DNA of 64,000 nt, taken from the IMG/VR virus record IMGVR_UViG_3300045961_000282, positions 1-64,000 of that record. One strand, given 5' to 3'. The translations under genes and the position numbers were made by a program. This DNA comes from a virus. Below the pieces are notes generated by a model. It saw nothing but the letters and a program-made list of their open reading frames with translations. It was not told the DNA's origin and did not search any database. Below, in pieces: positions 433 to 57,735 of this stretch; positions within the stretch are counted from its first letter, which is position 1; each line of letters opens with the position of its first letter.

Positions 433-1749
433 TCACAACAGGTCGAACAGGCTCGGCTCGTCATCCTCGGTCTTGGTCAACTTGTGGTGCGTCACCGGGT
501 CACGCCTCTTGGATATCCGTGCCACCGTCAGGTCGAGGTACTTCTCCTCGCGCTCGATAGCGATGCAGCGCATCCCCTCCAGCACGCACGCCTCAGCCGT
601 GGTGCCGCTGCCCGCAAACGGCTCGAGGACTGCCCCCCCCTGCGGGGTCACCAGCCGCACCAACCACCTCATGAGGTCCAGCGGCTTCACCGTCACGTGG
701 GCGACCCCATCCACCACGGGCCTCTCATCAGCCCCCGCCTTGGCGGTGTAGAAGAATCGCGACGCGCCGCCGAAATCGCCGTGGTCACGGATTCCCACGT
801 TCTCCGCACCGGCTCTCTGCATTCCGTGGTCCTGCGCCCACGACCCCCCGCCGCTCTTCTTTCCTGCCGATACCTTTGCCACCCCCGTGTTCGTCCCTGA
901 CTTTCCGCTCTGCTCATCAAGGAGCGCCGCGGCTTCCGTATCCAGCGTGACATTCGCAGGCCATCTCCCGGGAGCGTCGTAATTCGTTCGCTCCACCATT
1001 GAGAAATCGCCGTACACCGCATTGCCGCCGGGTTCGGTGCCGAAGTCGGCGTGCCGGTTCTTGTCCTTGCTCTCCCGCTCATCAGCCTCGTTGGCGAACC
1101 CGATCCGGCATCCATCGATGTTCAGCGCCCCCGTGCCGTGCTCCAGTACGTTCGCGGCCACCGTTCCCGCCAGCGGCTTGCGCGCCAGCACGATGGGCTC
1201 GAACGCCGGTTTCAAGGCGGTGGCCCACCCCTGCCACTGAACGGCCCCTGAGGTGGCAGGGACAGTGTCAGCGATCTCGATGTCCGCGTACCCCTCACCG
1301 GGGTTGCCGTAGTTGCCCCCGCGCATATCGCCCGCGCGCTTGACCCGCGTCCCCACGACCTCGCGCGTCGCACCCGCCGCCTTGTCGATGGCCTTGCTCA
1401 CGTCCATTGCCTTCGGGAATCCCGAACCATACATCCATACCAGTGAGTCGCGGATCTCGAATCCTGCATCCTCGATCGCGCATGCCATCCGGTGGTAGGT
1501 CCGTGTGCCGCCGAACGAGATCAGATGTCCGCCGGGCTTGAGAACGCGCAGGCACTCGCCCCACATCGCGACGTTGTAGGCGATCCCCGTGGCGTCCCAG
1601 CCCTTGCCCATGAATCCCAACTCGTAGGGCGGGTCGGTCACCACGGAGTCCACCGAGTTGTCGGAGAGTTCCCTGAGCACCTCAAGACAGTCGCCGTGGT
1701 ACAGGGTGACGCCGTGGTTGTCATAGTGGGGGGTCAGCACAGGGGTCAT
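433..1749 (-). CDS. DNA methyltransferase (N4-cytosine/N6-adenine, beta class)
   Basis: TDPPYE catalytic motif followed by EPFAGSGTT AdoMet-binding motif. Start refined to internal ATG at 1749 (protein MTPVLTPHYDNHGVTLYHGDCLEVL). Confidence 0.85.
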   Translation of the reverse strand: MTPVLTPHYDNHGVTLYHGDCLEVLRELSDNSVDSVVTDPPYELGFMGKGWDATGIAYNVAMWGECLRVLKPGGHLISFGGTRTYHRMACAIEDAGFEIRDSLVWMYGSGFPKAMDVSKAIDKAAGATREVVGTRVKRAGDMRGGNYGNPGEGYADIEIADTVPATSGAVQWQGWATALKPAFEPIVLARKPLAGTVAANVLEHGTGALNIDGCRIGFANEADERESKDKNRHADFGTEPGGNAVYGDFSMVERTNYDAPGRWPANVTLDTEAAALLDEQSGKSGTNTGVAKVSAGKKSGGGSWAQDHGMQRAGAENVGIRDHGDFGGASRFFYTAKAGADERPVVDGVAHVTVKPLDLMRWLVRLVTPQGGAVLEPFAGSGTTAEACVLEGMRCIAIEREEKYLDLTVARISKRRDPVTHHKLTKTEDDEPSLFDLL

Positions 1750-1792
1750 GCTAATACGTACGCACACGTCCGTAGCGCCGCGCGAAAGGAGA

Positions 1793-1826
1793 AGAGCCCC
1801 GGCGCCGTTCGTGGCACCGGGGCTCT
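1793..1826 (-). terminator. GC-rich hairpin between GHKL and methylase genes
   Basis: Perfect 10-bp inverted repeat AGAGCCCCGG...CCGGGGCTCT with 14-nt loop. On the minus strand it is followed by UCUCCUUUCG. Confidence 0.45.
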
Positions 1827-1840
1827 TCTGTTGGGGTTGG

Positions 1841-35664: not shown

Positions 35665-36477
35665 GTGGTCAGCATGCCATGTGCGACCTGCGGAGGCCCC
35701 CTGACCGGACGGGCCAAACGCTACTGCTCCGACTTCTGCGCGAAGGCCAAACCGTGTCGCACCTGCGGGACGCTCAAGGTCGGTCAGAGCCCCTACTGCC
35801 CCGACTGCCGCCGCGACCGCACCCCCAGCGTCGAACTGTGCCTCGACCCCGAGTGGCTGGCCCGGCAGGCCACCCGCGACGAACGACCCAAGCGCAAGCC
35901 GCAGGGAGGCCCCACCGACCTGTGGTGGTGCGCCGGATGCCGCGACTGGCTGAGCCCGCGATGGTTCCTGTCGTGGAAGCAGATCAAGGCGCAGGCCAAG
36001 GTGCCCGACCGCTGCCGCCCCTGTCGGTCGGCCCGCGGCCATGCCGCGAAGATCAAGGCCGAGTACGGCATGACCCCCGAAGATTACGACGCCCTGCTGG
36101 CCCTACAGGGCGGCGGGTGCGCCATCTGTGACGGCAAGCCCAAGACTGAAAGGTTGTCGGTAGACCATGATCATGAGACGGGCGCGGTTCGAGGCTTGCT
36201 CTGCAGCAAGGACAACAGCGAGTTGCTGTCCGGTGTCCGGCACTCGCATCGGCTGGCCTCACGTGCCGCGCTGTACCTGATCAGCCCTCCCGCGCAGACC
36301 GGCGTCGCCGTGCCCTACGCCACGTCCATCGCGACCGAGGAACTGCGCCTGCTGGTGCAGGGCGCAGCGTGCGCGCTGCTGGGGGACGCGGCGCTGGAGG
36401 TGTGCTGCGACGACGTGCCACGACTGCGGGATCTGGTCGACCGGCTGTGGGTGGAGTTGGACCCTACGGCCGGTTGA
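35665..36477 (+). CDS. recombination endonuclease VII-like Holliday-junction resolvase with N-terminal Cys-rich zinc fingers
   Basis: GGCAICDGKPKTERLSVDHDHETGAVRGLLCSKDN is the Endo VII signature. Confidence 0.75.
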   Translation: MVSMPCATCGGPLTGRAKRYCSDFCAKAKPCRTCGTLKVGQSPYCPDCRRDRTPSVELCLDPEWLARQATRDERPKRKPQGGPTDLWWCAGCRDWLSPRWFLSWKQIKAQAKVPDRCRPCRSARGHAAKIKAEYGMTPEDYDALLALQGGGCAICDGKPKTERLSVDHDHETGAVRGLLCSKDNSELLSGVRHSHRLASRAALYLISPPAQTGVAVPYATSIATEELRLLVQGAACALLGDAALEVCCDDVPRLRDLVDRLWVELDPTAG

Positions 36478-37210
36478 TGATCGTCACACCCATGCCCTTG
36501 AACAGGTGCGTCGCCTGCTTGGGGCCCACGCTCGACTTGCCCTTCGGGTCGCTGCCGAACCCGTGCGCCTTCTGGCACGCCCGCACCGCGGCGTCGGTCA
36601 TGTCCCCGTAGTTGCCGGTGACCGGCAGTTTGTCCTGCCCGGGGATGCTGTGGGCGTTGAGGGCCTTCTGCAGCAACCGCACGCTGGCGGAGTCCTTGGT
36701 CCCCGCCTTGAGTTGTTCCAGTCGCACGGTGGGCTTGGGCGGCGCTGGCGGCGGCTTGGGCGCGGCGGGGGCGGGCGACCACTTCAGCGACGGCGCCGGG
36801 TCCACGCAGTTGCCGCAGGACCACGTCCCGGCCTTGCGGTGCCGCTCGAAGTGCAGGTGCGGCCCGGTCACGTTGCCTTCTGCGCCGATCTCGCCGATCT
36901 TGTCCCCGGCCTTCACCTTCGTGCCCGCGGCAACCCGCATCCGCATATGGGCGTAGAAGTCACCCGTGCCGTCGGCGGCCACGATCAGCACCTGCTTGGA
37001 GCCGAATGCCCGCCCGAAGTTGACGTGGCGCACCGTGCCCGGCCGGGCGGCCACGACCTTCGTGCCCAACGGGGCCGCGATGTCGATGCCGGTGTGCTTG
37101 CCAAGACCGTTGCGCCGGTCACATGACCAGTATTTGCTGCGCTTTCCGTATGCCGTCGAAACAGAACGGCCCGGGACGGGATTTCCGATGTCTACTGCCC
37201 TCGCTTCCGA
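36464..37210 (-). CDS. M23 (LytM) peptidase domain plus peptidoglycan-binding domain, in-frame continuation after a TGA stop
   Basis: GKHTGIDIAAPLGT (H-x-G-x-D) and GPHLHFE motifs; LQKALNAHSIPGQDKLPVTGNYGDMTDAAVRACQKAHGF is PG_binding_1-like. The first in-frame start (TTG 37069) lies downstream of the H-x-G-x-D motif. Confidence 0.55.
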   Translation of the reverse strand, partial: SEARAVDIGNPVPGRSVSTAYGKRSKYWSCDRRNGLGKHTGIDIAAPLGTKVVAARPGTVRHVNFGRAFGSKQVLIVAADGTGDFYAHMRMRVAAGTKVKAGDKIGEIGAEGNVTGPHLHFERHRKAGTWSCGNCVDPAPSLKWSPAPAAPKPPPAPPKPTVRLEQLKAGTKDSASVRLLQKALNAHSIPGQDKLPVTGNYGDMTDAAVRACQKAHGFGSDPKGKSSVGPKQATHLFKGMGVTIINRP

Positions 37211-40067: not shown

Positions 40068-40868
40068 TCAAATCTTTTTCATGATGTAGGTCAGGGCGTA
40101 ATAAGGTGGGCGGTTTTCGTGCGCCTGCCCGCCTCCCTCGGCTGTGATGCTGTGGCTGTGAACGTTGCTCTGACTCATCCAGCCCGTGGAGAAGTCGTGC
40201 TGGTGATCGGTGTTGACCACGCCTGCGTTCAGGTCATTCCAGTAGCCGCCCGGCGGCGCATCGGTATGTCGCTTGAGGACGTTGCCATCCCACCCACCCG
40301 CCTCTGGCGGCCCGCCCGTCCCGGTCCGCAGGCCAGTGCCGTGTCCGTGGGCGGCGTTGTAGCCGTCTGCCTGATGTCCCGTGCGCCCCGAGTGCGTATG
40401 GTTCACATCGACCTGTGACGTGCTGCCCGTGTGGTTGTGCCACGGCACGTGCTCGATCCCAAGGGTCACCGCCGCCGCGCCACCCGTCGCGCCGTTGGCG
40501 TAGCCCGCACCGGCCCCGACGACGAACCTGTCCCGCAGGTCCGGGGTCGTTGCGGACCCGATGATGGCCTGCAGTTCGGTCGACCCGTGGGCGCTGCCGT
40601 CGCACAGGTGCCACCCCTCCGGAGCGACCGACCCGCCGTAGGCGATCACCGCGCCGATCGGCATGGCGGCATTGAGTTCGGCCCTCTGCACGAACGTCGA
40701 CGTGTCCGGTGCGGGACCCTCGGGCCCCTGCGGACCATCGGCCCCTGCGGGCCCTGCGGGCCCTTCGGGGCCCTGTGGGCCGGGGGGCCCCTGAGGGCCA
40801 CGGGGGCCTGCCGTGTTCAGGGACCGCCACTCACCCGTGTCCGCGTCGCGGTACTTGATGACAGCCAT
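40068..40868 (-). CDS. tail-fibre-like protein: anchor motif, collagen-like repeat, phage tail-collar domain
   Basis: MAVIKYRDADTGEWRSLN, G-X-Y x11, collar motif PIGAVIAYGGSVAPEGWHLCDGS. About 78% nt identity to the 5-prime end of 38912..40015. Confidence 0.7.
   Translation of the reverse strand: MAVIKYRDADTGEWRSLNTAGPRGPQGPPGPQGPEGPAGPAGADGPQGPEGPAPDTSTFVQRAELNAAMPIGAVIAYGGSVAPEGWHLCDGSAHGSTELQAIIGSATTPDLRDRFVVGAGAGYANGATGGAAAVTLGIEHVPWHNHTGSTSQVDVNHTHSGRTGHQADGYNAAHGHGTGLRTGTGGPPEAGGWDGNVLKRHTDAPPGGYWNDLNAGVVNTDHQHDFSTGWMSQSNVHSHSITAEGGGQAHENRPPYYALTYIMKKI
40709..40811 (-). repeat. collagen-like G-X-Y coding repeat
   Basis: G-X-Y x11. Confidence 0.6.
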
Positions 40869-41871: not shown

Positions 41872-42636
41872 TCAGGCCCCCTTGTAGATTATGTGGTTCA
41901 GCGCGAAGTAGGGCGGCATGATCGAGAAGGGCGCGCTTCCGCCGTCAGAAGGAATGGGGTGCGCATGCGGGCCACTGCCGACCTGCCGCAGCATGCTCGG
42001 ATCCCCCTCCAGCAGGGCGGGGTCGATCTGCCACCTGTCCGCGTCGCCCGTGGCCCCCTCGCCCGCGGGCCCCGTCGCGCCACCGTGGTTGTGGCGGGGC
42101 ATGTTGCTCACGGTCAGCGCGACCCGCTCGGCCCCGCCCTTGCTTCCGTGGGGGTATCCGTTGCCTGAGACCAAGATGAACCCGCTGCGCAGGTCGGGGG
42201 TGCGGTCGCTGCCCAGCACCTCTTCGAGAGCCGGAGAGCCGTGCACCGTCCCGTCACACAGGTGCCACCGCGGCGGCGCCAGTCGGCCCCCGAATGGGAC
42301 GATCACTCCGATCGGAACCGAGCCCTGTGAGTCGACGCGCTCGTCGACGTACTCCTTGGTCGCCGCATGGAACGGCTCGTGTGGCGGGCCCACCAGCGAC
42401 AATGGACCCAGCATCCGGTCACCGTCGGCATTGACGAACCGCTTGTCCAAGAAGGTCCAGCCGTCGACCTCGTCTGCGGTGCGAACGACATCATCGGACG
42501 TGTCGATCCAGATCTCGTAGCCGCCCTCCTTGATCGGCGGCTGCGCACCGCCGATCTGCACCTCTTCGGCCAAATCCGTCGTGGCAAACGGACGCCACTC
42601 ATCATCCGCGGGGTCGCGGTAGTACAAAGTGGGCAC
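41872..42636 (-). CDS. tail-fibre-like protein with anchor motif and tail-collar domain
   Basis: GTG start after GGAGG RBS: VPTLYYRDPADDEWRPF; collar motif PIGVIVPFGGRLAPPRWHLCDGTVHG. Confidence 0.6.
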   Translation of the reverse strand: MPTLYYRDPADDEWRPFATTDLAEEVQIGGAQPPIKEGGYEIWIDTSDDVVRTADEVDGWTFLDKRFVNADGDRMLGPLSLVGPPHEPFHAATKEYVDERVDSQGSVPIGVIVPFGGRLAPPRWHLCDGTVHGSPALEEVLGSDRTPDLRSGFILVSGNGYPHGSKGGAERVALTVSNMPRHNHGGATGPAGEGATGDADRWQIDPALLEGDPSMLRQVGSGPHAHPIPSDGGSAPFSIMPPYFALNHIIYKGA

Positions 42637-42831
42637 GGTCGGCCTCCAGCGGGGTGCGGCGCAGCACGAATGTACCAACGGGGCCCCGTGCGGGCGGGGC
42701 GTTTCTGCAACGGTCGTCAAGCAATGTCAGACCCCCCGCCTAGGGTCGCAGTGTGGGTTCGGAACCGGGCCCGGCACCGCGATCCTGATAGGGTTACGGC
42801 AGCATCACCAACGACACAAGGAAGGTCTCCC
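42637..42831. promoter_or_regulatory. divergent intergenic region
   Basis: About 195 nt between divergent genes; GGAAGG RBS before 42832. Confidence 0.35.
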
Positions 42832-43551
42832 ATGGCATCCACCCCCTACGACGACGACTACCAGTCCGTCGCCGAGCGCATCGCGATCTTCCGCACCAAG
42901 CACCCGGATGGGAGCCTGTGCGCCCTTGACCCGGCCAAGCCGTTCGAGATCGTCCACGTCGGCGACAAGGTTTTCATCGCCGTCACCGCGGCGGCCTATC
43001 GCAGTCCCGAGGATCCGGCCCCCGGCGTCGGGCTGGCGTGGCAGGTGTTCCCCGGCACCGACGAGTACACCCGCGACAACGAGTTGATGATCGCCCAGAC
43101 CTCGGCGTGGGGCCGGGCCATCGTCGCCGCGCTGGCCGCCGATGCCAAGAAGATCGCCACCAAGGACGAGGTCCGCGCGGCGCAGTCCAACCGAGCCCCT
43201 GCCAACCCGGCCCCGAGCGCCGCGAGCGCCAACGGCACGGCGGTCAAGCAGGAGGAGCCCCCGCAGTCCACCGACCCCACGGCGGAGTTGTACAACTCGG
43301 CTGTGGTCGATGAGGCGATGCGCCTGATGAAGGCGCCCACCACCACCTATGACGAACTGCGCGACGTCTGGCAGATGCTCTCGCAGGCGCGACTGGGCGC
43401 CCGGCGCATCGACCCGCCGCCCGGCATGGATGCCGATGGCGATGGCAAGGTCCCGATCCTCTCGGCGGTCGCCTTCGTGGGCAAGCAGCGCAAGGAGAAC
43501 GCCCCCGCCGCGCAGACCGAACTGGCGGTCAACGAGAAGGGTGCGAAGTGA
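42832..43551 (+). CDS. putative recombination (single-strand annealing) protein, tentative
   Basis: GGAAGG RBS; start MASTPYDDDYQSVAERIAIFRTKHPDGS. Immediately upstream of, and GTGA-coupled to, the Cas4-like nuclease. Function inferred from context only. Confidence 0.4.
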   Translation: MASTPYDDDYQSVAERIAIFRTKHPDGSLCALDPAKPFEIVHVGDKVFIAVTAAAYRSPEDPAPGVGLAWQVFPGTDEYTRDNELMIAQTSAWGRAIVAALAADAKKIATKDEVRAAQSNRAPANPAPSAASANGTAVKQEEPPQSTDPTAELYNSAVVDEAMRLMKAPTTTYDELRDVWQMLSQARLGARRIDPPPGMDADGDGKVPILSAVAFVGKQRKENAPAAQTELAVNEKGAK

Positions 43552-45608
43552 CCGACGACCTGACCACTGACGCCGCGACCGACATCGTCCTGCCCGACGT
43601 CCACGAGGCAGCCACGGGCGAGATCCCGCACACCGTCGTGCACTTCAATGCCATGGTCGGCGCGGCGTTCCGGGCGGCCAACGACAAGCGGGCGCGCAGC
43701 CAGCAGCGAGCGCTGGGCATGAGCGAGTTGGGCGGCTGCCGCCGACAGGCCGGGTTCAAGGTCACCAACACCCCGCAGTCCAACCCACAGGGGGACCGCA
43801 CTGACATCTTCGCCGACTCTCGCGAAGCCATGATCGGTTCAATGATCCACGACACGATCCTGCCGCAGATCGCCGAGATGAGCATGACCGCCGAGATCGA
43901 GAAGCCGGTGGTGCTCAAGTTCGAGGGACTGCCCGAAGTCCCCGGATCAGTCGATATGGTTGATGGGGATATCGTGCTGGATCTCAAGTGCCTGTCCCCA
44001 GAAACCCCGATCCTGATGGCGGATGGGCGCGCGAAAAGGGCCGATGAAATCAAGGTCGACGACCTTGTGGTGGTCTACGACCAGATCCACGACAAGTTGG
44101 TCCACGGCACCATCGCGGCAGTCGAGGAGAACGGCGACCAGCCGACCGTCGAGGTGATCACCGAGAGCGGGCGGCGGCTCAAGGTCACCGACGAGCACCC
44201 GGTCTGGGTCAAGGACGATCCCGAGTCGCTGGGCCGCTGGGTGGATGCCTTCGACCTCGAGGCCGGAATGCTGGCCACGCTGGCCCTGTCCGCGCCCGTG
44301 GAGACCCCGCAGCCGTTGCCGGAGATCGGCCCCGATGACCCATGGCTGCTGGGGCTGCTGGCGGCGGTTCAGTTCACCCCCGATGACCTCATGGTCAAGG
44401 TCTCCGACGAGACGGTGCGGGCCGTGGCAATGACGTCCATCGCGCTGATGGAGCCCGGCTACGCCAACGAACTGTGGCGGCGCAACTCGTGGATCGGGCT
44501 GGGCGACCCGCAGATCCCCGACGACGTGATCCTGTCCGGCCCGCGGGCGTGGCAGGAGTGGCTGTCGGGCTTCTCGGCCATGGCCCTGTCGTTCGAGGAG
44601 CGCACGTCGTGGAAGACCCCCAACCGGGCCTTCGCCGAACAGATGGCCGCGATGCTGTGCGGGCTGGGCATCAAGGCCCACATCGGCATGGACGACTACG
44701 GCAAGCCCGTGGTGTCGGTGCGCGACGACTACGGGGTCAAGCGGCTGTCCAGCGCCCTGTGGCTGCGCGGCAACAAGAGCGAGCGGCTGCGGGCCATCGC
44801 CGAGCGGCTCGACGGCACCCGCCCGGAGCACTACGAACTGGACAGGATCACCGCCGTCATCCGCGACAGCGAGCCGACCCGCACGTTGGCCATCGAGGTT
44901 GCCGAGTTCCACACGTTCGTCACCGGGGGTCTGGTCACCCACAACACCGTCGGGTCCAACTCAGCGACCTACTACCAGACCCACGGAGCCAGCCGTCGGC
45001 ACCTGTTCCAGACGCACGGGTACGCCCAAGCCCTGATCAACGCAGGGCACGACATCCGCCACGTCGCGCTGGCCTACATCGACCGGTCCAACGGGCAGGT
45101 CGTGCACATGCACTACCAGCCCTTCGACCCCGGCATCGTGATGGACATCGAGCAGTGGTGGCTGGAGGTCAACTCGGCCACCGACCCGATGGACCTTCCG
45201 CGCGACGAGAAGGGGCCCGGGATCTCGCGGCAGTGCGACTGGTGCCCGTGGCTCAACCTGTGCTGGGGCCCCGATGCCAAGCCCGGCGAGATCGGCCCAC
45301 AGAAGGTCATCGTCCACGAGGCCAGTGACGAGAACGCCGAGGTTGAGCGCTGGCTGCGCGAGTACCACGCCGCGTCGAAGGCTGAGAAGGAGGCGACCGA
45401 GAACAAGAAAATGGCCCGCGCCGTTCTGGCCGACGCCCCTGCGGGTCAGTATGGTTCGTTCGTCCTCGGCTGGAGCCCGGACGGGTCCTACGAAACCCTC
45501 GATGCCGATGCTGCCGAGAAGGCCCTGACCGCCGCCGGGCTGCCGGTGCCCAAGGTCACCCGGACCCGGCAGGGCGCGATTCGGGTGAAGCCCAGCAAGA
45601 AGGTCTGA
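43548..45608 (+). CDS. PD-(D/E)xK Cas4/RecB-like nuclease with C-terminal Fe-S Cys cluster, interrupted by an intein
   Basis: Extein motifs VDMVDGDIVLDLK (D...D-x-K), QTHGYAQAL (QxxxY), RQCDWCPWLNLC (C-x2-C-x5-C) plus an N-terminal GGCRRQ Cys. Confidence 0.7.
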   Translation: MTDDLTTDAATDIVLPDVHEAATGEIPHTVVHFNAMVGAAFRAANDKRARSQQRALGMSELGGCRRQAGFKVTNTPQSNPQGDRTDIFADSREAMIGSMIHDTILPQIAEMSMTAEIEKPVVLKFEGLPEVPGSVDMVDGDIVLDLKCLSPETPILMADGRAKRADEIKVDDLVVVYDQIHDKLVHGTIAAVEENGDQPTVEVITESGRRLKVTDEHPVWVKDDPESLGRWVDAFDLEAGMLATLALSAPVETPQPLPEIGPDDPWLLGLLAAVQFTPDDLMVKVSDETVRAVAMTSIALMEPGYANELWRRNSWIGLGDPQIPDDVILSGPRAWQEWLSGFSAMALSFEERTSWKTPNRAFAEQMAAMLCGLGIKAHIGMDDYGKPVVSVRDDYGVKRLSSALWLRGNKSERLRAIAERLDGTRPEHYELDRITAVIRDSEPTRTLAIEVAEFHTFVTGGLVTHNTVGSNSATYYQTHGASRRHLFQTHGYAQALINAGHDIRHVALAYIDRSNGQVVHMHYQPFDPGIVMDIEQWWLEVNSATDPMDLPRDEKGPGISRQCDWCPWLNLCWGPDAKPGEIGPQKVIVHEASDENAEVERWLREYHAASKAEKEATENKKMARAVLADAPAGQYGSFVLGWSPDGSYETLDADAAEKALTAAGLPVPKVTRTRQGAIRVKPSKKV
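43989..44945 (+). mobile_element. intein (319 aa)
   Basis: N-terminal splice junction K|CLSPETPILMADG; C-terminal FVTGGLVTHN|T. Length is a multiple of 3; internal LLGLLAAVQ resembles a degenerate LAGLIDADG block. Confidence 0.7.
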
Positions 45609-45743
45609 CCCACATCCCAGAGGGCCCCGAAAGCATCGACGCTTCCGGGGCCCTCGGCGTTCGTGGGCACCTTCGGCGGTGCTAGGTTTGAAAGGTCCCG
45701 TTGGGGACACGGACGCCCCCATGGGGGCACTAGGGAGAAGAAG

Positions 45744-51026: not shown

Positions 51027-51566
51027 CTAGTACGTCCCCCAAGCGATCCACGCAACACGGCAGTCGTCGGCCGAACCGCTTCGGTTATGCACGACTCCCA
51101 CCAATCCGTTTGCATTCACCTCGGTGATGCCCGCGCCATCCATGCTGTTTCCCCAGTTGTTCTTGACCCCGGTGCAAATAGCGCTGACCGATTGGTAGGA
51201 GAACCCGAAACCAGCACTCCACGTTGTGTACGAATTCGCGGGACAGGTGACGTAGGTCGCACCCCAGATGATCCGCCAGCGGGGTGTGCCGTACCCGCCC
51301 GAGGTCGGGTTCCCGTCATACCCGACTGGCCCCTGCCCCCCCGTGGGGCCGCGGTCACCCTGCGGCCCCTTGGGTCCCTGATCTCCCGTCTGGCCCTTGG
51401 GCCCCATGTCGCCTTGGGGCCCCTTGGCGCCCGCGTCCCCCGTGGCGCCCTTGGCCCCCATGTCACCCGTCGGCCCCTTGGCCCCTTGGGGCCCCGTTGG
51501 CCCAGCAGGCAGGGACAGCAGGGTCCATGCGCCATCGCTGGACCGGCGGTACCGCAAGACGCTCAT
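51027..51566 (-). CDS. collagen-like tail-fibre paralog
   Basis: [22 protein letters not shown] then G-X-Y x21. Confidence 0.65.
51311..51506 (-). repeat. collagen-like G-X-Y coding repeat
   Basis: G-X-Y x21. Confidence 0.6.
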
Positions 51567-52090
51567 GACGGTGACCCCACGCCCACGGCGATCCACTGCA
51601 CGTAGGTGCCAGTGGTGTTGCTGCGAACCACATTGACCTGTGACGACGTCATGCCGGGGCCGGTCATGGTGCCACAGGCGCGCACCGTTCCGGGGACCGA
51701 GGTGCGCGCCGAACAGATGACCGTCGGAAGTTGGGTGAACCCGTCGTAGTAGATGGTCACAGCCGTCGACGTGTTGGACACCGGGGTGATGTAGGCCTCG
51801 CCGCGACGGAAGGTGATCCCCGATGGAACGCCCGGAGCCCCTTGGGGGCCCTGCCCACCTTGGTAGCCCTGTGGGCCCTGATCCCCGGTTGGACCAGTCG
51901 GGCCCTGATCACCCGTAGGCCCAGTGGGCCCTTGATCACCCGTGAGTCCGGTCGGGCCCCGGTCCCCGACGGGCCCCACAGGTCCCTGATCTCCAGTGGG
52001 GCCAACGGGTCCCTGTGGTCCAGTGGGGCCCTTGAGGGGCAGGAGGGCCATCGCCCCCGTCCCCGAGTGACGGTACCTCAGGACGCTCAT
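51563..52090 (-). CDS. collagen-like tail-fibre paralog
   Basis: [21 protein letters not shown] then G-X-Y x23; ATGA overlap at 51563-51566. Confidence 0.65.
51826..52033 (-). repeat. collagen-like G-X-Y coding repeat
   Basis: G-X-Y x23. Confidence 0.6.
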
Positions 52091-52236
52091 GGGTAGTTCG
52101 AAGCCTCATCGATCCAGATCAGGATCGCCGGATCAGCGGGCTCCTGCGTTCCGACAGCAACCTGCTTCGGCTCCGGTGTCGCGAACGGCTTGAACTGCTG
52201 GTCGACCGGGTCGCGGTACCACAGGGTTGCCATCGG
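52087..52236 (-). CDS. short anchor-motif ORF (about 48 aa)
   Basis: [22 protein letters not shown]...[11 protein letters not shown]; ATGA overlap with 51563..52090; below the table cutoff. Confidence 0.35.
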
Positions 52237-52363
52237 GCGGGCTCCCTCCAGTGTTGGCTACTGTGGCAGCGTAGTTGCAGGAGCCCCCTCGGCGACCCTA
52301 GAAACACACATCGCCCGATCGGCTCGAGCGCGACATCCCCGCCGAGGATTGAATCAGACAAAT

Positions 52364-53911
52364 CTACCCGAAGTTGATATAGCCACCTTCGTAAACAAAA
52401 GCACGATATCCATCAACGTAGTGAATAGTTAAAGTTGGCCGCAAAAGGGTATTGCACCCGATACCCCAAACCGGATTTGGGGTATCTCCATATCCCACCA
52501 TCCTCCATCCAAATGGAGTGAAGTCCTGCAGGATATTGTTTGCGTAACACCAGTCACCTCCAGACTGATGCATAGCAACAGGCCCTCTCAGGCCACCGCC
52601 AGACTGAGCCCTATTTCCCTTGTTCCACCACTGCGTGTATGGATTGCTTGGAATCCCAGTGCAATACCAACCCTCTGAGTCCGGAACATGGAAAGTGATC
52701 GAAGTGGCGAGGTCCATAGTTGCCTTGGGGATGTTGTACTCCACCCGAGCGCCTGCAGCAAACAGGTTCTCCATGAACAGAGACGTCTGTGTTTGCTCAG
52801 CGGTTCGCAACGAAACCGATTCGCTGCGACTACGATAGGAGAACGAAACCGAAATCTCCGGTGAATACACCGTATCCGCACCCGCTGATCGAACTCGGAA
52901 GCGCGCGGAAGCCCCAAACCAGCCAATCTCATAATTCCCAGCCGGAATAGCAGAGTTAATCGGAATCGGAGAACCCGACGACATGGTCGCAACGTCAACC
53001 CAGCCCTGATTCGGCAATTGGCGCTGCAGCATCAATGGACCGATGAGATGGGCATTAGCCGTGACGACTGGCGTAAACGTGATCTGCGTGAAGTAGACCT
53101 CGGCACTGGTCGTGCTGGCATCAAGGCGAAGCACCGGGACAGGCTTGGTCAGGGTCTTGGCTGACGTAGAGGCCTTGGCTCCCTCGCCCCCTTCGGAAAT
53201 CCCCGCGAGCCAGTAATAGTATGTGGTGTTCGAAGCCAACCCGGAGTCGCCGCGCGTCGTTTCTCCTGCGGGGATGGTGGCGATCTTTGTGGCATTGGCA
53301 ACGTCCCATGAAGTGCCGCGATACAGCGAGTAGCCGTGGGTCGCGGTGGACTGGGCGTCCCACGACAGCGCGACGCTGGTCTCGCTCGGCACCGCCCTGA
53401 ATCCGGCTGGGGCACCGGGCGGGCGCTCCGTCCATGGCCACACCGTCTCTGTTCCTGTGGTGAAATGCATCACTACCTCAGAAACCGACAAAGTTCGATA
53501 CGTAGGCACCTGAATGCCGTTGAGCCAATACCGCAGTCCGAGGACCAGAACGTCGCAGCCCTCATCCCCGAGTTCGATGCCGCACCATTGTCCGACCGCA
53601 GTGAACTCATGAGCGATGGTCTGATATCCATCCGTCCACGGTCCCGACGACGTGTATGCGTGCGAAATTCTGGCCCTGCCCGCCAGCACGCGAACATCGG
53701 CCTCCATGCGAACTACGTCACCGGAGACGTACCACGGGTTGGTGGCGACCAGCCCCACGCCTCCGGGCGGCGACATCAGGCGCAGGCCATGGTTCGTCCG
53801 TGACACATGCACCTTCTGGTAACCAAGCCCGAAGTTGTCTTTCCACTCGGTCGGCGTGTTCAGTGGGTCGGGAGTGCAATACAGCGCATCACCATCGGCG
53901 AGAAGAGGCAT
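52364..53911 (-). CDS. tail protein with fibronectin type III domain
   Basis: PPGAPAGFRAVPSETSVALSWDAQ...YSLYRGTS...NTTYYYWLAGISEGGEG. Confidence 0.55.
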   Translation of the reverse strand: MPLLADGDALYCTPDPLNTPTEWKDNFGLGYQKVHVSRTNHGLRLMSPPGGVGLVATNPWYVSGDVVRMEADVRVLAGRARISHAYTSSGPWTDGYQTIAHEFTAVGQWCGIELGDEGCDVLVLGLRYWLNGIQVPTYRTLSVSEVVMHFTTGTETVWPWTERPPGAPAGFRAVPSETSVALSWDAQSTATHGYSLYRGTSWDVANATKIATIPAGETTRGDSGLASNTTYYYWLAGISEGGEGAKASTSAKTLTKPVPVLRLDASTTSAEVYFTQITFTPVVTANAHLIGPLMLQRQLPNQGWVDVATMSSGSPIPINSAIPAGNYEIGWFGASARFRVRSAGADTVYSPEISVSFSYRSRSESVSLRTAEQTQTSLFMENLFAAGARVEYNIPKATMDLATSITFHVPDSEGWYCTGIPSNPYTQWWNKGNRAQSGGGLRGPVAMHQSGGDWCYANNILQDFTPFGWRMVGYGDTPNPVWGIGCNTLLRPTLTIHYVDGYRAFVYEGGYINFG

Positions 53912-53915
53912 TTGA

Positions 53916-55439
53916 TCATCCCGTCAGCACATAGAGGACGCCAGCAGCCTTAGTTGGCAAAGCGTTGTACTGCTCTCGCGTACCGAACCACATGCGGTTG
54001 TCCACATAGGCTTTTGTCGCCGCTCCCAACGGCTTCTCGGGATCTCCCGAAAGCGTGAGCGGGCCAATCATCGTGTCGCCCTTGCGCTGGACCGTCGACT
54101 TCTCGCCGTTGGCCAGCAGTTCGAAGCCTTCTGGGCCACGGTAGAACATGTCAACCACATCGATGGCTGACTGCTCAACGGAGAAATCCTTGAAGTCAAT
54201 CGTGAAGATACGGTCGCTCGAAAGAGTCGGTAGTCCCGGATTGCTCATAGCCCCCCATGCACCGACTGAAACAGAAATCGAGATAGATGGGTTGTCTTTT
54301 ACGACAGCCATGACATCAAAAGATAGACTCGTCGCAAGTTTCGGGCCAATCTCCGTAAACTTCCCGGAATAGACTGCACTCAAAATTCGACTTGCGGAAG
54401 TATAGGCATGCTTCTCAGTCCACCCATCACCGATAGGACCGTCCGGAGGGAGCAATGGATCGGATACAGCCAGACCTGCACCAAAAGTTACGTAAACGGT
54501 CACACTCATCGGTTGATCGATCATTGCCGCCGGAACGCTATCGAACAATCGATCGATGTTCAGTTCAATGCGACCCCGAAGACGAACCTCGGAGTTATAG
54601 GTAACTTCCGTCAATGGAATATTGAGAGCGCCAATCGATGTACCGAACTGCCATCCAGAAGGGGTGGCTCCAGCAGAGAACATCGTCTCGATGCGCCCTA
54701 GGTCACCGGGGATCGAACCGCTTTCAGGCTGCGTGAGGACTCCAGCAGGAGTGGCGAGGGCTACGGTTGTGCCGGTGGTGTAGTTCACCGGAGCCGACAA
54801 TTGCCGCGCGGAGACAGTGCGCTCGTTGACCCACAACTTGGCGGTTTCCATGGGCTCGCCGATGGAAACCTCTGGAGGAGTCGCAGAGTCGTCTACGTAA
54901 CCCTTCGTCGCCACGTGGTGAGATTCGGTTGGACTCGGCACCGACAGTGGCCCGATCATCGTGTCGCCAGTCACGTTGATGTAGCGCGCATCTGCTTCAT
55001 CCCACGACGAACCCTCGCCGCCCCCGGCGATGCCGCCCGTGTCGTCGTCGAGGTCAACCCAGATCTCGATGTCCGGCTCCTCAACGGGAGGCTCCTCGTG
55101 GATCCAGACCTCCTTGGCCCCACCACCCCCCGTGCCAGCCTCCGGCTCGGCGTTGGGGTCGATCCAGATCTCGACCTCGGGGTCGACGGGCTCTACGCCG
55201 ATCCAGACCTCATCGACCTCCATCGGCGGGTTGACCCACGCCGCGTCATGGTCGGAGTCGCTGGCCTTGATGAGCATCTGCCCCTCGGTGCCCCCCGCGG
55301 GCACCCCGGGGCCAGCGGGGCCCTGTGCACCGGGTTCGCCGGGCGCGCCGGGCTCGCCCTGCGGACCTGCCGGACCACGTGCGCCCACGATCGGCACGTA
55401 TTGCTGGGATACTTCGTCCCAGACCTTGAGAACGCCCAT
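53916..55439 (-). CDS. tail-fibre paralog with anchor motif, short collagen repeat and E-(I/V)-W-(I/V)-D repeats
   Basis: MGVLKVWDEVSQQYVPIVGARG; GPAGPQGEPGAPGEPGAQGPAGPG; EVWIGVEP, EIWIDPNA, EVWIHEEP, EIWVDLDD. Confidence 0.6.
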   Translation of the reverse strand: MGVLKVWDEVSQQYVPIVGARGPAGPQGEPGAPGEPGAQGPAGPGVPAGGTEGQMLIKASDSDHDAAWVNPPMEVDEVWIGVEPVDPEVEIWIDPNAEPEAGTGGGGAKEVWIHEEPPVEEPDIEIWVDLDDDTGGIAGGGEGSSWDEADARYINVTGDTMIGPLSVPSPTESHHVATKGYVDDSATPPEVSIGEPMETAKLWVNERTVSARQLSAPVNYTTGTTVALATPAGVLTQPESGSIPGDLGRIETMFSAGATPSGWQFGTSIGALNIPLTEVTYNSEVRLRGRIELNIDRLFDSVPAAMIDQPMSVTVYVTFGAGLAVSDPLLPPDGPIGDGWTEKHAYTSASRILSAVYSGKFTEIGPKLATSLSFDVMAVVKDNPSISISVSVGAWGAMSNPGLPTLSSDRIFTIDFKDFSVEQSAIDVVDMFYRGPEGFELLANGEKSTVQRKGDTMIGPLTLSGDPEKPLGAATKAYVDNRMWFGTREQYNALPTKAAGVLYVLTG

Positions 55440-55532
55440 CAGCCCTCCTGCGAACCGCTCACGTCAGGGTCACGGTATTAGACCAGCGCTTCCGAGAGGA
55501 GAAGATTCCGCACTCTCGTCGGCCCGTTGCCG

Positions 55533-55799
55533 TCAGGGGTTGTTGCGCAGGTGCTGAACCGCAGCGAGGATCATCTCGTCGGTGATCACCGCGGGATCCT
55601 CGCCGGGCTTCTCATTGCCCGCCGCGAGCGCCGAGTCCCACGCCGCGCCCCAGCCGGGCTGCGAGGCCCACCGGAAGGCGTTGGTCGACGTCCAGATCTC
55701 CGGGTTCGGGTCACCCTCGGTCGCAGCGCACGCGGTCACCCGGTACCGCATCATGGTGTCCACCGAGATCTTCGCGATGGACAGGTACGAGTCAGCCAT
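55533..55799 (-). CDS. hypothetical protein
   Basis: GGAGG RBS then ATG MADSYLSIAKIS. Confidence 0.4.
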   Translation of the reverse strand: MADSYLSIAKISVDTMMRYRVTACAATEGDPNPEIWTSTNAFRWASQPGWGAAWDSALAAGNEKPGEDPAVITDEMILAAVQHLRNNP

Positions 55800-55801
55800 T
55801 A

Positions 55802-56767
55802 CTACCTCCACGGGATGATGACGAGTGAGTAGCCATCAATCCACGCATCCCTCGTGGATTGGGCCCACAGGGCGAAGGCCCCTTGCCTGAAAAGTACGGC
55901 CATGCTGACGCCATAGGTATCGCCGCCGACCGCCGTGGCCATGACGTTTGCCCACTGCCAGCCATACGGCAGAGCGCTATCGGCAACCGTGTTCCGCTGC
56001 CCCGCGTAGATGCGCTGCCGGTGTGCAACAGTGACCCCGTAGACCAGAGGAACGGTTGCATTGGGACCCGCCGGTCCCTGAGCGCCCTGCGGTCCCTGAT
56101 CACCCCTCACTCCCTTGTCGCCCTGCGGGCCGGGAGACCCTGCAGCGGGCACGAAGTCCTGATACGAAACACCCGACAGGCCCGCGGTGAGGAAGGGCAC
56201 TGAGTCCCCGACGGCGGGACGCACGCGGGCCGAGCCCACCGACAGGGCCCAGTTGTAGGTCGAGAAGACCAGCGTGGCATCTCCGGGATGCTGGACTGGC
56301 TGCGCCTGATCCCACGGCGTGTAGAGGCCACCGTCGTGCTGATGTCCCAGAACCACGTTGTAGGGCTCATCGGCATGCTGAACAACTCCGATGGCCACGG
56401 ACTTCTCTGCGTTCGCCTTCGCCGCATAGCCGATCGCGACCGAGTCGTCGCGCATGTCTGGCCATTGCTCAACACGGTTGCCGAAGGTGGCGTCGATATA
56501 GGCGCCGCCCTGACCGATCAGGGTGCCGCGGCTGCGCGTATCGACCTTGAGGTAGTCGGTGATCGAAGCGCCAGTTCCATCTGCAGAGACGTGCACCTCG
56601 GCGCTGCGGTGATCTGAGTTGATCCCCTCAGTGATGGGCTCCTCGGAGCGGATCGCGAACTGCAGTTTGGAGCCCTGATTCTCAACGGTGAATGGCGGGA
56701 TGTTTGGGTCCTCAGAATCAAAAGTGATTCCGTCTTCTACCGCTTCCAAATCATGCAGATGCTTCAT
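55802..56767 (-). CDS. tail-fibre-like protein with internal collagen repeat
   Basis: GSPGPQGDKGVRGDQGPQGAQGPAGP. Confidence 0.5.
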   Translation of the reverse strand: MKHLHDLEAVEDGITFDSEDPNIPPFTVENQGSKLQFAIRSEEPITEGINSDHRSAEVHVSADGTGASITDYLKVDTRSRGTLIGQGGAYIDATFGNRVEQWPDMRDDSVAIGYAAKANAEKSVAIGVVQHADEPYNVVLGHQHDGGLYTPWDQAQPVQHPGDATLVFSTYNWALSVGSARVRPAVGDSVPFLTAGLSGVSYQDFVPAAGSPGPQGDKGVRGDQGPQGAQGPAGPNATVPLVYGVTVAHRQRIYAGQRNTVADSALPYGWQWANVMATAVGGDTYGVSMAVLFRQGAFALWAQSTRDAWIDGYSLVIIPWR

Positions 56768-57735
56768 AGCCAGATCACCACATAGAAGAGTCGAAAGTAT
56801 TCTCCGTAAGGACCATAGTTATGCACCTGCACCTGCAGGTCGATCCCGCTGGTGATGGCAAAAACCGCAAGACAGTTTCTGTCCACTTCGATTGGCATCG
56901 CCGAAGCGTACAAAAGATTCGCCCCATAGCCAGATGCATTTGGAATATTGATGGTGAGATACTCGTTTGACTTCACATAGAAGTTGTCGGTGCCGTTGAT
57001 TCCCGACGGGGCGACCATTCTGGCGCGGATGTTTCCGTAGTGACTGACTCCCGCAGTTCCTTGCGGGCCCTGCGGGCCCCTGTCGCCCGTGGGCCCCTTG
57101 GGTCCCGTGTCGCCCTTGACGCCGACTGTGCCGGGGTATACCGGAGGAGAGAACCACCCCAGCGAGCCATCTGGCAGGGCGCCGAAGACCTGCCCGGGTG
57201 AACCATATCCAGAGTTGCCCACGCGGAACTTGTAGGCCGTGTCTGCGCGACCGAACGTGTAGTCAGTGACGTGCGGGTACCACCAGTACCCGTACTTGAC
57301 ATGAACTGCCCCGCGGTCCTCTGCTCCCGCTCCGGCCACGAATGAGGGTGACCCGGTCGCGCGCGCCCCGTAGCCGATGGCTTGGGCACGCATGGCCAGA
57401 TCTCCCGCGCTCTCATTGTTACCTTGGGGCGGGGGCGGGACCCATGAATCTGGCACGCCGACGTAGGCGTCCTTGCCGATGGCGATGGCGTGGTAGCCGC
57501 GCAACACGTGGGCGGAGGTGTCTGCTCCGTGGCCCACCACGGTCTGCACGGGTGGCAGGCCACCTCGATCGGAGCGCGAGTTGATCAACAGCGACCCACG
57601 CCCGTCCGGAACGCGCCAGTAGATCGTCGAGCGCCCATCCGTGAACTTGGAGAACACCGACGGAGTTGCCCCGGTGAGTTTCGCAGGCTCGGTGAAGGCG
57701 AACCACGCCTGCCTGATCTTGGTGGCGATCTTCAT
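56764..57735 (-). CDS. tail-fibre-like protein with internal collagen repeat
   Basis: GTVGVKGDTGPKGPTGDRGPQGPQGTAG. Confidence 0.5.
   Translation of the reverse strand: MKIATKIRQAWFAFTEPAKLTGATPSVFSKFTDGRSTIYWRVPDGRGSLLINSRSDRGGLPPVQTVVGHGADTSAHVLRGYHAIAIGKDAYVGVPDSWVPPPPQGNNESAGDLAMRAQAIGYGARATGSPSFVAGAGAEDRGAVHVKYGYWWYPHVTDYTFGRADTAYKFRVGNSGYGSPGQVFGALPDGSLGWFSPPVYPGTVGVKGDTGPKGPTGDRGPQGPQGTAGVSHYGNIRARMVAPSGINGTDNFYVKSNEYLTINIPNASGYGANLLYASAMPIEVDRNCLAVFAITSGIDLQVQVHNYGPYGEYFRLFYVVIWL

What the first reader, a model, noticed from the sequence alone, without database searches (positions are those of the whole stretch)
43548..45608. Intein inserted immediately after the catalytic lysine of a Cas4-like PD-(D/E)xK Fe-S nuclease
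The protein reads ...GSVDMVDGDIVLDLK|CLSPETPILMADG......AEFHTFVTGGLVTHN|TVGSNSATYYQTHGYAQAL...RQCDWCPWLNLC. CLSPETPI is a canonical intein N-terminal splice junction and HN followed by T a canonical C-terminal junction. The insert is 957 nt (319 aa), and the flanks reconstitute D...D-x-K|T and QxxxY nuclease motifs plus a 4-Cys cluster. The intein may carry a degenerate LAGLIDADG endonuclease (LLGLLAAVQ). The nuclease is GTGA-coupled to an upstream putative annealase, forming a recombination module. An intein in a phage recombination nuclease is a mobile element within a mobile element and marks an essential gene.
Basis: partly seen in the sequence, partly recalled or inferred. Interest (0 to 1): 0.65.

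Follow-up and report, generated by a model that had tools for sequence, protein, structure and literature searches.

The report
Intein splitting a phage recombination nuclease

Summary
Confirmed. ORF 43548..45608 (+, 686 aa) encodes a Cas4-like PD-(D/E)xK nuclease with a four-Cys motif. A 319-aa intein (nt 43989..44945) sits between the motif-III lysine K147 and T467. Ten homologues lack the insert and read DLK|T straight across the junction. The curated intein model TIGR01445 scores above its cut-off. C1, block-B TxxH, and the terminal HN plus T+1 are invariant in the five intein-bearing orthologues. This is a class 1 intein whose central domain keeps a LAGLIDADG fold but has lost the acidic catalytic residue in both motifs, so it is probably no longer self-mobile. 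Intein and extein divergence track each other (r = 0.96). The upstream gene, which overlaps the nuclease start (GTGA), has a Rad52-superfamily annealase fold, and a strong hairpin closes the two-gene operon. Inteins at this (D/E)xK|T site are already described in actinobacteriophage Cas4/RecB-like nucleases (Kelley 2016; a 2025 preprint), mostly as class 3. In metagenomes, 31 of 92 related class 1 inteins occupy the same site. Verdict: a new member of a known kind, of modest interest.

The parts
42832..43551 (+). Upstream gene (239 aa, P0173): predicted single-strand annealing protein of the Rad52 superfamily. ATG start with AAGGAAGG upstream; its stop overlaps the nuclease start.
43548..45608 (+). 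Precursor gene: Cas4-like PD-(D/E)xK nuclease interrupted by an intein (686 aa, 75.5 kDa; GTG start in a GTGA overlap).
   Evidence: The identical protein P0001 lies on a 206,257-bp JGI contig.
43548..43988 (+). N-extein, aa 1-147. Contains Cys64 (43737..43739), motif II D136 (43953..43955) and motif III D145-L-K147 (43980..43988).
   Evidence: Invariant columns in alignment A2. PHROG 1706, 1674 and 1990 hits on the spliced sequence.
43989..44303 (+). Intein N-terminal splicing region (aa 148-252). Block A Cys148 (C1); block B T214-D-E-H217 (44187..44198).
   Evidence: TIGR01445 scores above its cut-off; Pfam Intein_splicing, Hint and Hom_end_hint hits; C1, T67 and H70 (intein numbering) are invariant in the 5 orthologues.
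44304..44843 (+). Degenerate LAGLIDADG homing-endonuclease-like domain (aa 253-432). Motif 1 LLGLLAAVQ at 44346..44372; motif 2 WLSGFSAMAL at 44559..44588. The catalytic Asp is missing from both.
   Evidence: Alignment with 32 related inteins that keep ...LLGxLxGDG and FLSGxxDTDG. This part of the AF2 model has pLDDT of about 75-90. Foldseek best hits are PI-SceI, TliVMA intein, PI-PfuI and I-DmoI. dN/dS is about 0.46, with 51 of 180 columns invariant.
44844..44945 (+). Intein C-terminal splicing region (aa 433-466). Blocks F and G: TLAIEVAEFHTFVTGGLVTHN, ending in His465-Asn466.
   Evidence: The Pfam Intein_splicing match runs to the model's end at residue 466. H308, H318 and N319 (intein numbering) are invariant. 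The family C-terminal HMM scores 66 bits. Position F:4 is Ala, not Cys, so the class 3 signature is absent.
44946..45608 (+). C-extein (aa 467-686 plus stop). Contains the +1 nucleophile T467 (44946..44948), Q488xxxY492 (45009..45023), and C563, C566 and C572 (45234..45263, CxxCxxxxxC).
   Evidence: Alignment A2; coordinates read.
45616..45659 (+). GC-rich hairpin 8 nt after the stop codon; a likely terminator for the two-gene operon.
   Evidence: RNA fold of 45605..45670: -40 kcal/mol, z = -5.8, 0 of 200 shuffles fold as well. There is no T-run, so terminator function is inferred.

Best explanation
The gene encodes a Cas4-like PD-(D/E)xK exonuclease with a four-Cys motif typical of Fe-S nucleases. 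It is made as a 75.5-kDa precursor carrying a 35.3-kDa class 1 intein between the catalytic lysine of motif III (K147) and the conserved threonine that follows it (T467).

Inferred mechanism, following the standard class 1 pathway:
1. Cys148 performs an N-S acyl shift, assisted by block B T214/H217.
2. The T467 hydroxyl attacks the thioester.
3. Asn466 cyclises with help from His465 and releases the intein.
4. An O-N shift restores the ...DLK-TVGSN... peptide bond, giving a 40.1-kDa nuclease.

Before splicing, motifs II and III are separated by 319 residues from the QxxxY motif and from three of the four cluster cysteines, so the precursor is presumably inactive.

The intein's central domain is a LAGLIDADG homing-endonuclease fold that has lost the acidic catalytic residue of both motifs. 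The element is therefore most likely a fixed, vertically inherited passenger that can no longer home by itself.

The nuclease is co-transcribed and translationally coupled with an upstream Rad52-superfamily annealase. Together they form a two-component exonuclease/annealase recombination module, functionally like lambda Exo/Red-beta or RecE/RecT, in a large actinobacteriophage-like genome.
For: Shown:
- The boundaries and length are exact.
- Ten homologues lack the insert at K|T or K|S.
- Intein profile hits: TIGR01445 above its cut-off and Pfam Intein_splicing across the whole insert.
- 351 phmmer hits; of 92 complete related inteins, 31 lie at a (D/E)xK|T/S site.
- Six of nine spliced host proteins tested hit PDDEXK_1, three of them above the gathering score.
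- C1, TxxH, F-block His, HN and T+1 are invariant in 5 orthologues whose inteins are only 46-69% identical.
- Extein dN/dS is 0.12-0.20 in the intein-bearing alleles, so the host protein is under purifying selection and must be made functional.
- The LAGLIDADG fold is retained: PI-SceI, PI-PfuI and I-DmoI are the best structural matches.
- GDG and DTDG are replaced or deleted in all five orthologues.
- Pairwise intein and extein identities correlate at r = 0.96.
- Nuclease family: PHROG 1706 (E = 1e-22), 1674 and 1990 'Cas4-domain exonuclease'; conserved D, DxK, QxxxY and C...CxxCxxxxxC.
- Annealase fold; conserved gene pair; GTGA overlap and ribosome-binding sites; hairpin after the stop.

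Inferred: actual splicing, Fe-S binding, nuclease and annealing activities, and inactivity of the precursor.
Against: - Pfam Intein_splicing (29.1 bits) and PDDEXK_1 (18.9 bits) are below their gathering scores of 35.8 and 22.
- The AF2 intein model is mediocre (pLDDT 67.6), and the C-terminal splicing strands are modelled at pLDDT of about 30, so the HINT fold itself is not well shown structurally.
- Position F:4 is Ala rather than the common Asp, although relatives in this intein family share that.
- No PDB sequence match for the extein profile.
- In an extein NJ tree the intein-bearing alleles are not monophyletic (bootstrap 5.5%), so strict vertical inheritance is not demonstrated. Past homing or precise losses are needed to explain this.
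- dS is near saturation (pS about 0.57), so the dN/dS values are rough.
Confidence: 0.85

Rival explanations
1. The intein is still an active selfish element. It homes into intein-free alleles during co-infection, using either a non-canonical active site in its LAGLIDADG-like domain or a nuclease supplied in trans.
For: Intein-bearing and intein-free alleles are interspersed in the extein tree (site-A monophyly bootstrap 5.5%). The HEN-like domain is full length with few indels, has 51 of 180 invariant columns, and has dN/dS below 1. The window encodes a free-standing Endonuclease_7-domain protein at 35665..36477. The 2025 preprint reports inteins with non-canonical or out-of-frame endonucleases.
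Against: Both LAGLIDADG acidic residues are absent in all five orthologues, while 20 or more relatives at the same site keep GDG and DTDG. Intein divergence tracks extein divergence (r = 0.96); no near-identical inteins occur in divergent exteins, which is the signature of recent homing. The antisense ORF across the intein has no domain hit and is closed by stops in every orthologue.
Confidence: 0.08
2. The intein no longer splices, or splices poorly. The gene is then a decaying pseudogene, or the precursor itself has another role.
For: Intein HMM scores are modest. F:4 is Ala. Thr is a weaker +1 nucleophile than Cys (general knowledge). Splicing was not tested.
Against: Every residue required for class 1 splicing is invariant across orthologues with 46-69% intein identity. 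Both extein halves are strongly conserved (79% and 76% mean identity, dN/dS 0.12-0.20), which would not be expected if the host protein were never reconstituted. T+1 and Ala or Gly at F:4 are the norm in the whole related intein family.
Confidence: 0.05
3. The 319-aa segment is an ordinary accessory domain of the nuclease that is not excised.
For: None beyond the fact that splicing is unproven.
Against: The segment is absent, to the residue, from 10 homologues. It starts with Cys, ends with His-Asn and is followed by Thr. It matches intein profiles and intein/LAGLIDADG structures. It splits the DxK-T active-site motif.
Confidence: 0.02

Closest known systems
RecB-like/Cas4 exonuclease inteins of cluster C1 mycobacteriophages (e.g. 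Catera gp206), described in Kelley et al. 2016 (PMC5050341) and in the 2025 actinobacteriophage survey (bioRxiv 10.1101/2025.01.02.630785; 138 Cas4 inteins, site EFK|T)
   Same: Same kind of host protein: a phage Cas4-like PD-(D/E)xK nuclease with a Cys cluster. Same insertion point, directly after the motif-III lysine with Thr at +1; Catera gp206 reads VELK|SLACSTPIL...PTHN|TQNS. Both have a LAGLIDADG-type central domain.
   Different: The Catera-type intein is class 3: no Cys at position 1, and Cys at block F:4 (RCITV). Ours is class 1: Cys1, Ala at F:4. The one significant BLASTP segment (27% identity, E = 2e-6) covers precursor residues 81-269, that is, N-extein plus the N-terminal part of the intein. 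The exteins are too distant for tblastn: the spliced-extein search at E <= 1e-5 returned 38 records, Catera not among them, and the best cultured-phage hits are about 25% identical. Catera keeps GDGD and DSDG, whereas ours has lost both.
Uncultured class 1 LAGLIDADG inteins at (D/E)xK|T of PD-(D/E)xK nucleases (P0024, P0025, P0028, P0033, P0043, P0044, P0072 and others)
   Same: These are the closest sequence relatives: up to 38% identity, E as low as 2e-22. They share Cys1...THN and T+1, the same insertion site, and the same domain order.
   Different: They retain intact LAGLIDADG catalytic motifs. They sit in other, often unrelated, PD-(D/E)xK nuclease families.
PI-SceI, PI-PfuI and TliVMA inteins (solved intein plus LAGLIDADG structures)
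   Same: Best structural matches to the model (Foldseek E = 5e-5 to 1e-3). Same two-domain architecture.
   Different: Sequence identity is only 11-17% and TM scores are low because the splicing domain is poorly modelled. Those endonucleases are active.
Two-component phage recombination modules (lambda Exo/Red-beta, RecE/RecT, Sak/Erf-type annealases with Cas4-like nucleases)
   Same: An exonuclease gene adjacent to and co-transcribed with a Rad52-superfamily annealase gene.
   Different: The nuclease here is Cas4-like with a Cys cluster rather than lambda-Exo or RecE type. The annealase belongs to an unannotated family (2075 homologues, no Pfam model). No activity was tested.

Membership tests
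Intein, class 1 | Nucleophile (Cys, Ser or Thr) at intein position 1 | tested here: met
   Cys148 is invariant in the 5 orthologues and in all 32 aligned relatives.
Intein, class 1 | Block B TxxH | tested here: met
   T214-D-E-H217 (44187..44198); T67 and H70 (intein numbering) are invariant.
Intein, class 1 | C-terminal His-Asn followed by Cys, Ser or Thr at +1 | tested here: met
   H465-N466|T467. The +1 residue is T in nearly all intein-free homologues as well.
Intein, class 1 | Match to curated intein/HINT profiles | tested here: met
   TIGR01445 scores 30.8 bits against a cut-off of 24.5. Pfam PF14890 scores 29.1 bits, which is below its gathering score of 35.8 but spans the model end to end.
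Intein, class 1 | In-frame insert that is precisely absent from homologues of the host protein | tested here: met
   P0006-P0018 and P0021 read ...D-x-K|T/S... with no gap residues.
Intein, class 1 | HINT fold of the splicing domain | tested here: inconclusive
   N-terminal strands are modelled at pLDDT of about 60-75 but the C-terminal part at about 30. Whole-intein structures (PI-SceI and others) are the top Foldseek hits with low TM scores.
Intein, class 1 | Protein splicing actually occurs | not testable with these tools
   Needs expression plus western blot or mass spectrometry.
Intein, class 3 | No N-terminal nucleophile; Cys at block F:4 (WCT triplet) | tested here: not met
   Cys1 is present and F:4 is Ala301 (intein numbering). 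Compare Catera gp206, which has RCITV and starts with Ser.
Active LAGLIDADG homing endonuclease | Two LAGLIDADG helices in a pseudo-dimeric alpha/beta fold | tested here: met
   Residues 112-285 of the intein are modelled at pLDDT 75-90. I-DmoI, I-Tsp061I and PI-SceI are the matches (TM normalised to target about 0.5 for I-DmoI).
Active LAGLIDADG homing endonuclease | Conserved acidic residue at the end of each LAGLIDADG motif (metal binding) | tested here: not met
   Motif 1 is LLGLL-AAVQ where relatives have LLGxLxGDG. Motif 2 is WLSGFSAMAL where relatives have FLSGxxDTDG. The same loss is seen in P0002-P0005.
Cas4-like / RecB-family PD-(D/E)xK nuclease with Fe-S cluster | Motif II D, motif III (D/E)xK, and QxxxY | tested here: met
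   D136, D145-L-K147 and Q488...Y492 are invariant over 17 homologues.
Cas4-like / RecB-family PD-(D/E)xK nuclease with Fe-S cluster | Four cysteines: one N-terminal plus C-terminal CxxCxxxxxC | tested here: met
   C64, C563, C566 and C572 are invariant or nearly so. Metal binding itself was not testable.
Cas4-like / RecB-family PD-(D/E)xK nuclease with Fe-S cluster | Profile match to Cas4/PDDEXK families | tested here: met
   PHROG 1706 (E = 1.2e-22), 1674 (4.5e-21) and 1990 'Cas4-domain exonuclease' (2.8e-6). Pfam PDDEXK_1 scores only 18.9 bits against a gathering score of 22 for this protein, but is on record for most intein-free homologues, and PF01930 is on record for P0021. No CRISPR association is implied.
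Rad52-superfamily single-strand annealing protein (upstream gene) | Beta-beta-beta-alpha core fold shared by Rad52, Red-beta, Erf and Sak3 | tested here: inconclusive
Rad52-superfamily single-strand annealing protein (upstream gene) | ssDNA annealing activity or oligomeric ring formation | not testable with these tools
   Biochemistry is needed.

The most novel reading that the evidence does not exclude
The catalytically dead LAGLIDADG domain has been kept at full length, with a quarter of its positions invariant and dN/dS below 1, across orthologues that are only about 50% identical. It may therefore have been co-opted rather than merely decaying. One possibility is that it makes splicing a conditional, post-translational switch for maturation of the nuclease's active site and Fe-S cluster. 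Another is that it still binds the target DNA. A related reading: the motif-III K|T site, together with the second site at the Fe-S ligand Cys seen in P0006, is a hot spot colonised independently by class 1 and class 3 inteins, which would offer a test bed for the proposed origin of class 3 inteins from class 1 inteins in phages.
Probability: 0.1. Interest if true: 0.5.

Novelty: new member of a known kind. Interest (0 to 1): 0.3.

Why it matters
The intein must be recognised to annotate this gene correctly. Otherwise the 686-aa protein looks like an unannotated hypothetical, which is how its source labels it.

The finding adds a divergent class 1 intein with a dead endonuclease to the set of inteins at the (D/E)xK|T motif of phage Cas4-like nucleases. 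The metagenome survey shows this site is widely used by class 1 inteins, not only by the class 3 inteins known from cultured mycobacteriophages. A relative carries a different intein at an Fe-S ligand cysteine of the same protein.

This is useful for intein catalogues, for studies of intein decay and fixation, and possibly as a source of a Thr+1 splicing domain. It does not change what is known about inteins or phage recombination.

Tried and rejected
- Megablast of the gene and tblastn of the intein against 50,697 phage records found no match. The spliced extein finds only Cas4 exonucleases of Arthrobacter, Gordonia and Rhodococcus phages at about 25% identity.
- The look-up of encoding contigs for P0001 returned 'not on record'.
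- PDB sequence searches with the annealase (single sequence and profile) and with the extein profile gave nothing meaningful. The intein alone gave one weak intein hit.
- The afdb50 fold library was unavailable.
- Hypothesis of an endonuclease encoded in another frame, prompted by the 2025 preprint: the 331-aa antisense ORF 43947..44942 spans the intein, but it has no Pfam hit, is interrupted by stops in all four orthologues, and has non-coding codon-position GC (0.92/0.43/0.67). Rejected as a GC-bias artefact.
- A search for further inteins in the window, using HMMs built from this intein family, found none. The Catera TerL and gp206 inteins served as positive controls.
- The large insertion in the DNA methyltransferase at 433..1860 is not intein-like.
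- No tRNA genes in the window.
- GC content gives no sign of recent acquisition: intein 0.68, exteins 0.65-0.67, window 0.656.
- dN/dS should be read cautiously because synonymous sites are near saturation.
Full report
**Observation**

The ORF at 43548..45608 (+) starts with GTG and encodes 686 aa. Residues 148-466 (nt 43989..44945, 957 nt) begin with CLSPETPI and end with GLVTHN. The upstream ORF's stop codon (43549-43551) overlaps the GTG start. The nuclease start has GAGAAGGG upstream, and the upstream gene starts at ATG 42832 behind AAGGAAGG.

**Is the insert an intein?**

Three independent lines say yes.

- Profile searches. NCBIfam TIGR01445 (intein N-terminal splicing region) scores 30.8 bits against a curated cut-off of 24.5. 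Pfam Intein_splicing matches from residue 9 to the last residue of the insert across model positions 2-155 (E = 1e-6), although its 29.1 bits is below the gathering score of 35.8. Hint and Hom_end_hint give weak hits at the N-terminus.
- Intein-free homologues. A search with the spliced sequence found nine homologues of 351-358 aa and about 60% identity, plus more distant ones. In the alignment they read ...DLK|T(V/S)G... with no residue in the 319 columns. P0006 (66% identical over the aligned extein columns) does the same.
- An exhaustive phmmer search of 1.84 billion cluster representatives with the insert alone. It returned 351 proteins at E <= 0.001. The 92 complete matches I could parse are all C1...HN inserts followed by T or S.

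**Splicing class and competence**

Cys1, block B T-x-x-H (T214/H217; 44187..44198), the block F histidine, and the terminal His-Asn are invariant among the five intein-bearing orthologues P0001-P0005, and the +1 Thr is conserved in all five. Their inteins are only 46-69% identical to each other. Block F position 4 is Ala, not Cys, so the class 3 signature is absent and this is a class 1 intein.

The exteins of the intein-bearing alleles are under strong purifying selection: 79% and 76% mean identity, and dN/dS of about 0.12-0.20. The splicing regions give 0.27-0.28. That pattern is what a spliced, functional host protein would produce. Splicing itself is inferred, not shown.

**The endonuclease domain**

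Aligned with 32 related inteins, the central region corresponds to a LAGLIDADG domain. Relatives carry ...AYLLGxLxGDG... and ...FLSGxxDTDG.... This intein and its four orthologues have PWLLGLL-AAVQF (the GDG end is deleted or replaced) and WLSGFSAMAL (both Asp replaced).

An AF2 model built from the five orthologues is mediocre overall (pLDDT 67.6) but confident for residues 112-285. Its best PDB matches are PI-SceI, the TliVMA intein, PI-PfuI and I-DmoI. So the fold is retained and the catalytic acidic residues are not.

The domain evolves faster than the rest (50% mean identity, dN/dS about 0.46) but is not collapsing: it has few indels and 51 of 180 invariant columns.

An antisense ORF covers the whole intein. 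I tested it because a recent survey reports endonucleases encoded in other frames. It is an artefact: no domain hit, and stops in all orthologues.

**Inheritance**

Pairwise intein identity tracks pairwise extein identity (r = 0.96). This is the opposite of the 'near-identical intein in divergent exteins' pattern of recent homing.

However, in an NJ tree of exteins the intein-bearing alleles are not monophyletic (bootstrap 5.5%). Either old homing events or precise losses must have occurred. The data do not resolve which.

**Host protein**

The spliced sequence hits PHROG 1706 (E = 1.2e-22), 1674 and 1990 ('Cas4-domain exonuclease'). Pfam PDDEXK_1 is sub-threshold for this protein but on record for its homologues.

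D136, D145-x-K147 and Q488xxxY492 are conserved, as is the Cas4-type cysteine pattern C64...C563-x2-C566-x5-C572. The intein therefore sits immediately after the motif-III lysine, which is the catalytic lysine by homology to PD-(D/E)xK nucleases. It uses the conserved Thr of the (D/E)xK-T motif as its +1 nucleophile.

**Genomic context**

- The upstream gene (42832..43551) has no sequence-family annotation but more than 2000 homologues.
- Its AF2 model (pLDDT 85.7) has an alpha-beta-beta-beta-beta-alpha core.
- Against predicted viral structures, most of the 50 listed hits are unnamed. The functionally named phage proteins are SAK3, RecT, ERF, Rad52/22 and 'DNA repair protein'; the only other named hit is a low-probability polyprotein match.
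- A gene in this upstream position, overlapping or abutting the nuclease start, is present in six related metagenomic loci, and five of those upstream proteins appear in the SSAP homologue list on contigs of matching length.
- A -40 kcal/mol hairpin (z = -5.8) follows the nuclease stop.
- I conclude this is a bicistronic annealase/exonuclease recombination module. The annealase assignment rests on fold only.
- The surrounding 64 kb is phage-like: tail-collar and collagen-like fibre genes, primase/helicase, endonuclease VII, an M23 peptidase, a DNA methyltransferase, and many small ORFs. It lies on a 206-kb contig.

**Comparison with what is known**

Kelley et al. [quoted passage not shown] The 2025 survey (bioRxiv 10.1101/2025.01.02.630785) counts 138 Cas4 exonuclease inteins and gives the site as EFKT.

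I read Catera gp206 directly: VELK|SLACSTPIL...PTHN|TQNS. This is the same site, but a class 3 intein with intact LAGLIDADG motifs. BLASTP against our precursor gives one significant segment, 27% identical (E = 2e-6), covering the N-extein and the N-terminal part of the intein.

In metagenomes, 31 of 92 complete relatives of our intein sit at a (D/E)xK|T/S site. The hosts are diverse nucleases: six of nine spliced hosts tested hit PDDEXK_1, three of them above the gathering score. Four relatives sit at a P-loop-like GK|T site, at least one of them in a terminase-like protein. That echoes the terminase-to-Cas4 'extein switching' proposed in the preprint.

Nothing closer than 38% identity exists outside the intein's own five-member clade, and no cultured phage record matches it.

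**Verdict**

The observation and its core interpretation are correct. The finding is a new, divergent member of a known kind: a class 1 intein with a dead endonuclease at the known motif-III site of a phage Cas4-like nuclease. The claims that it is still mobile and that it marks an essential gene are not supported. Interest is modest.

Noticed in passing
L002:785-2962 (protein P0006): A close homologue of the nuclease has no intein at K|T. It carries a different intein of about 323 aa between Trp and the second cluster cysteine (CDW|CCAPGT...YIVHN|CPWLKAC). The +1 nucleophile would be an Fe-S ligand Cys, making this a second insertion site in the same protein family. The next gene encodes an HNH_repeat protein.
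   Followed up: partly
L004:7722-8882: In a syntenic relative, a TnpB/IS605 OrfB gene (OrfB_IS605, Cas12f1-like_TNB) is inserted between the tail-collar gene and the annealase gene. The window has only a 111-nt intergenic region at that position.
   Followed up: no
window 43947..44942 (-): A 331-aa antisense ORF spans the whole intein. It has no Pfam hit, is interrupted by stops in all four orthologues, and has codon-position GC of 0.92/0.43/0.67. It is a by-product of GC3 bias, not a hidden endonuclease gene.
   Followed up: yes
window 45616..45659 (+): A strong GC-rich hairpin (-40 kcal/mol, z = -5.8) lies just after the nuclease stop codon, with no T-run. It is a likely terminator of the annealase-nuclease operon.
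   Followed up: partly
window 52000..57700: This stretch has lower GC (0.555-0.61 against about 0.66). It contains four large minus-strand genes (52364..53911, 53916..55439, 55802..56767, 56764..57735) with collagen-like G-x-y repeats and fibre-like sequence. It may be an exchanged receptor-binding cassette.
   Followed up: no
window 40068..40868, 41872..42720, 51563..52090 (all -): There are multiple paralogous tail-collar and collagen-like fibre genes (Pfam Collar and Collagen; tail-fibre PHROGs). The same multiplicity is seen in relative L004. That is an unusually large set of fibre genes for one phage region.
   Followed up: no
window 433..1860 (-): This DNA methyltransferase (475 aa) matches phrog_67 over 415 residues but only 235 profile positions, implying a large internal insertion. 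The insertion is not intein-like by the family HMMs or by inspection.
   Followed up: partly
window 42832..43551 (+) and its family (alignment A3): The annealase-like protein belongs to a very large family with no usable annotation: 2075 homologues, mostly about 190-200 aa, including Nocardia proteins, and no consistent Pfam family on record (stray PF11272 or PF06252 hits on five of the 120 listed). Its conserved N-terminal 110 residues fold like Rad52/Sak3/Erf annealases. The family may deserve its own profile model.
   Followed up: partly
window 35665..36477 (+) and 36464..37069 (-): An Endonuclease_7-domain protein (270 aa) lies next to an M23 peptidase with a peptidoglycan-binding domain (lysin-like). 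The same neighbours occur in L004.
   Followed up: no
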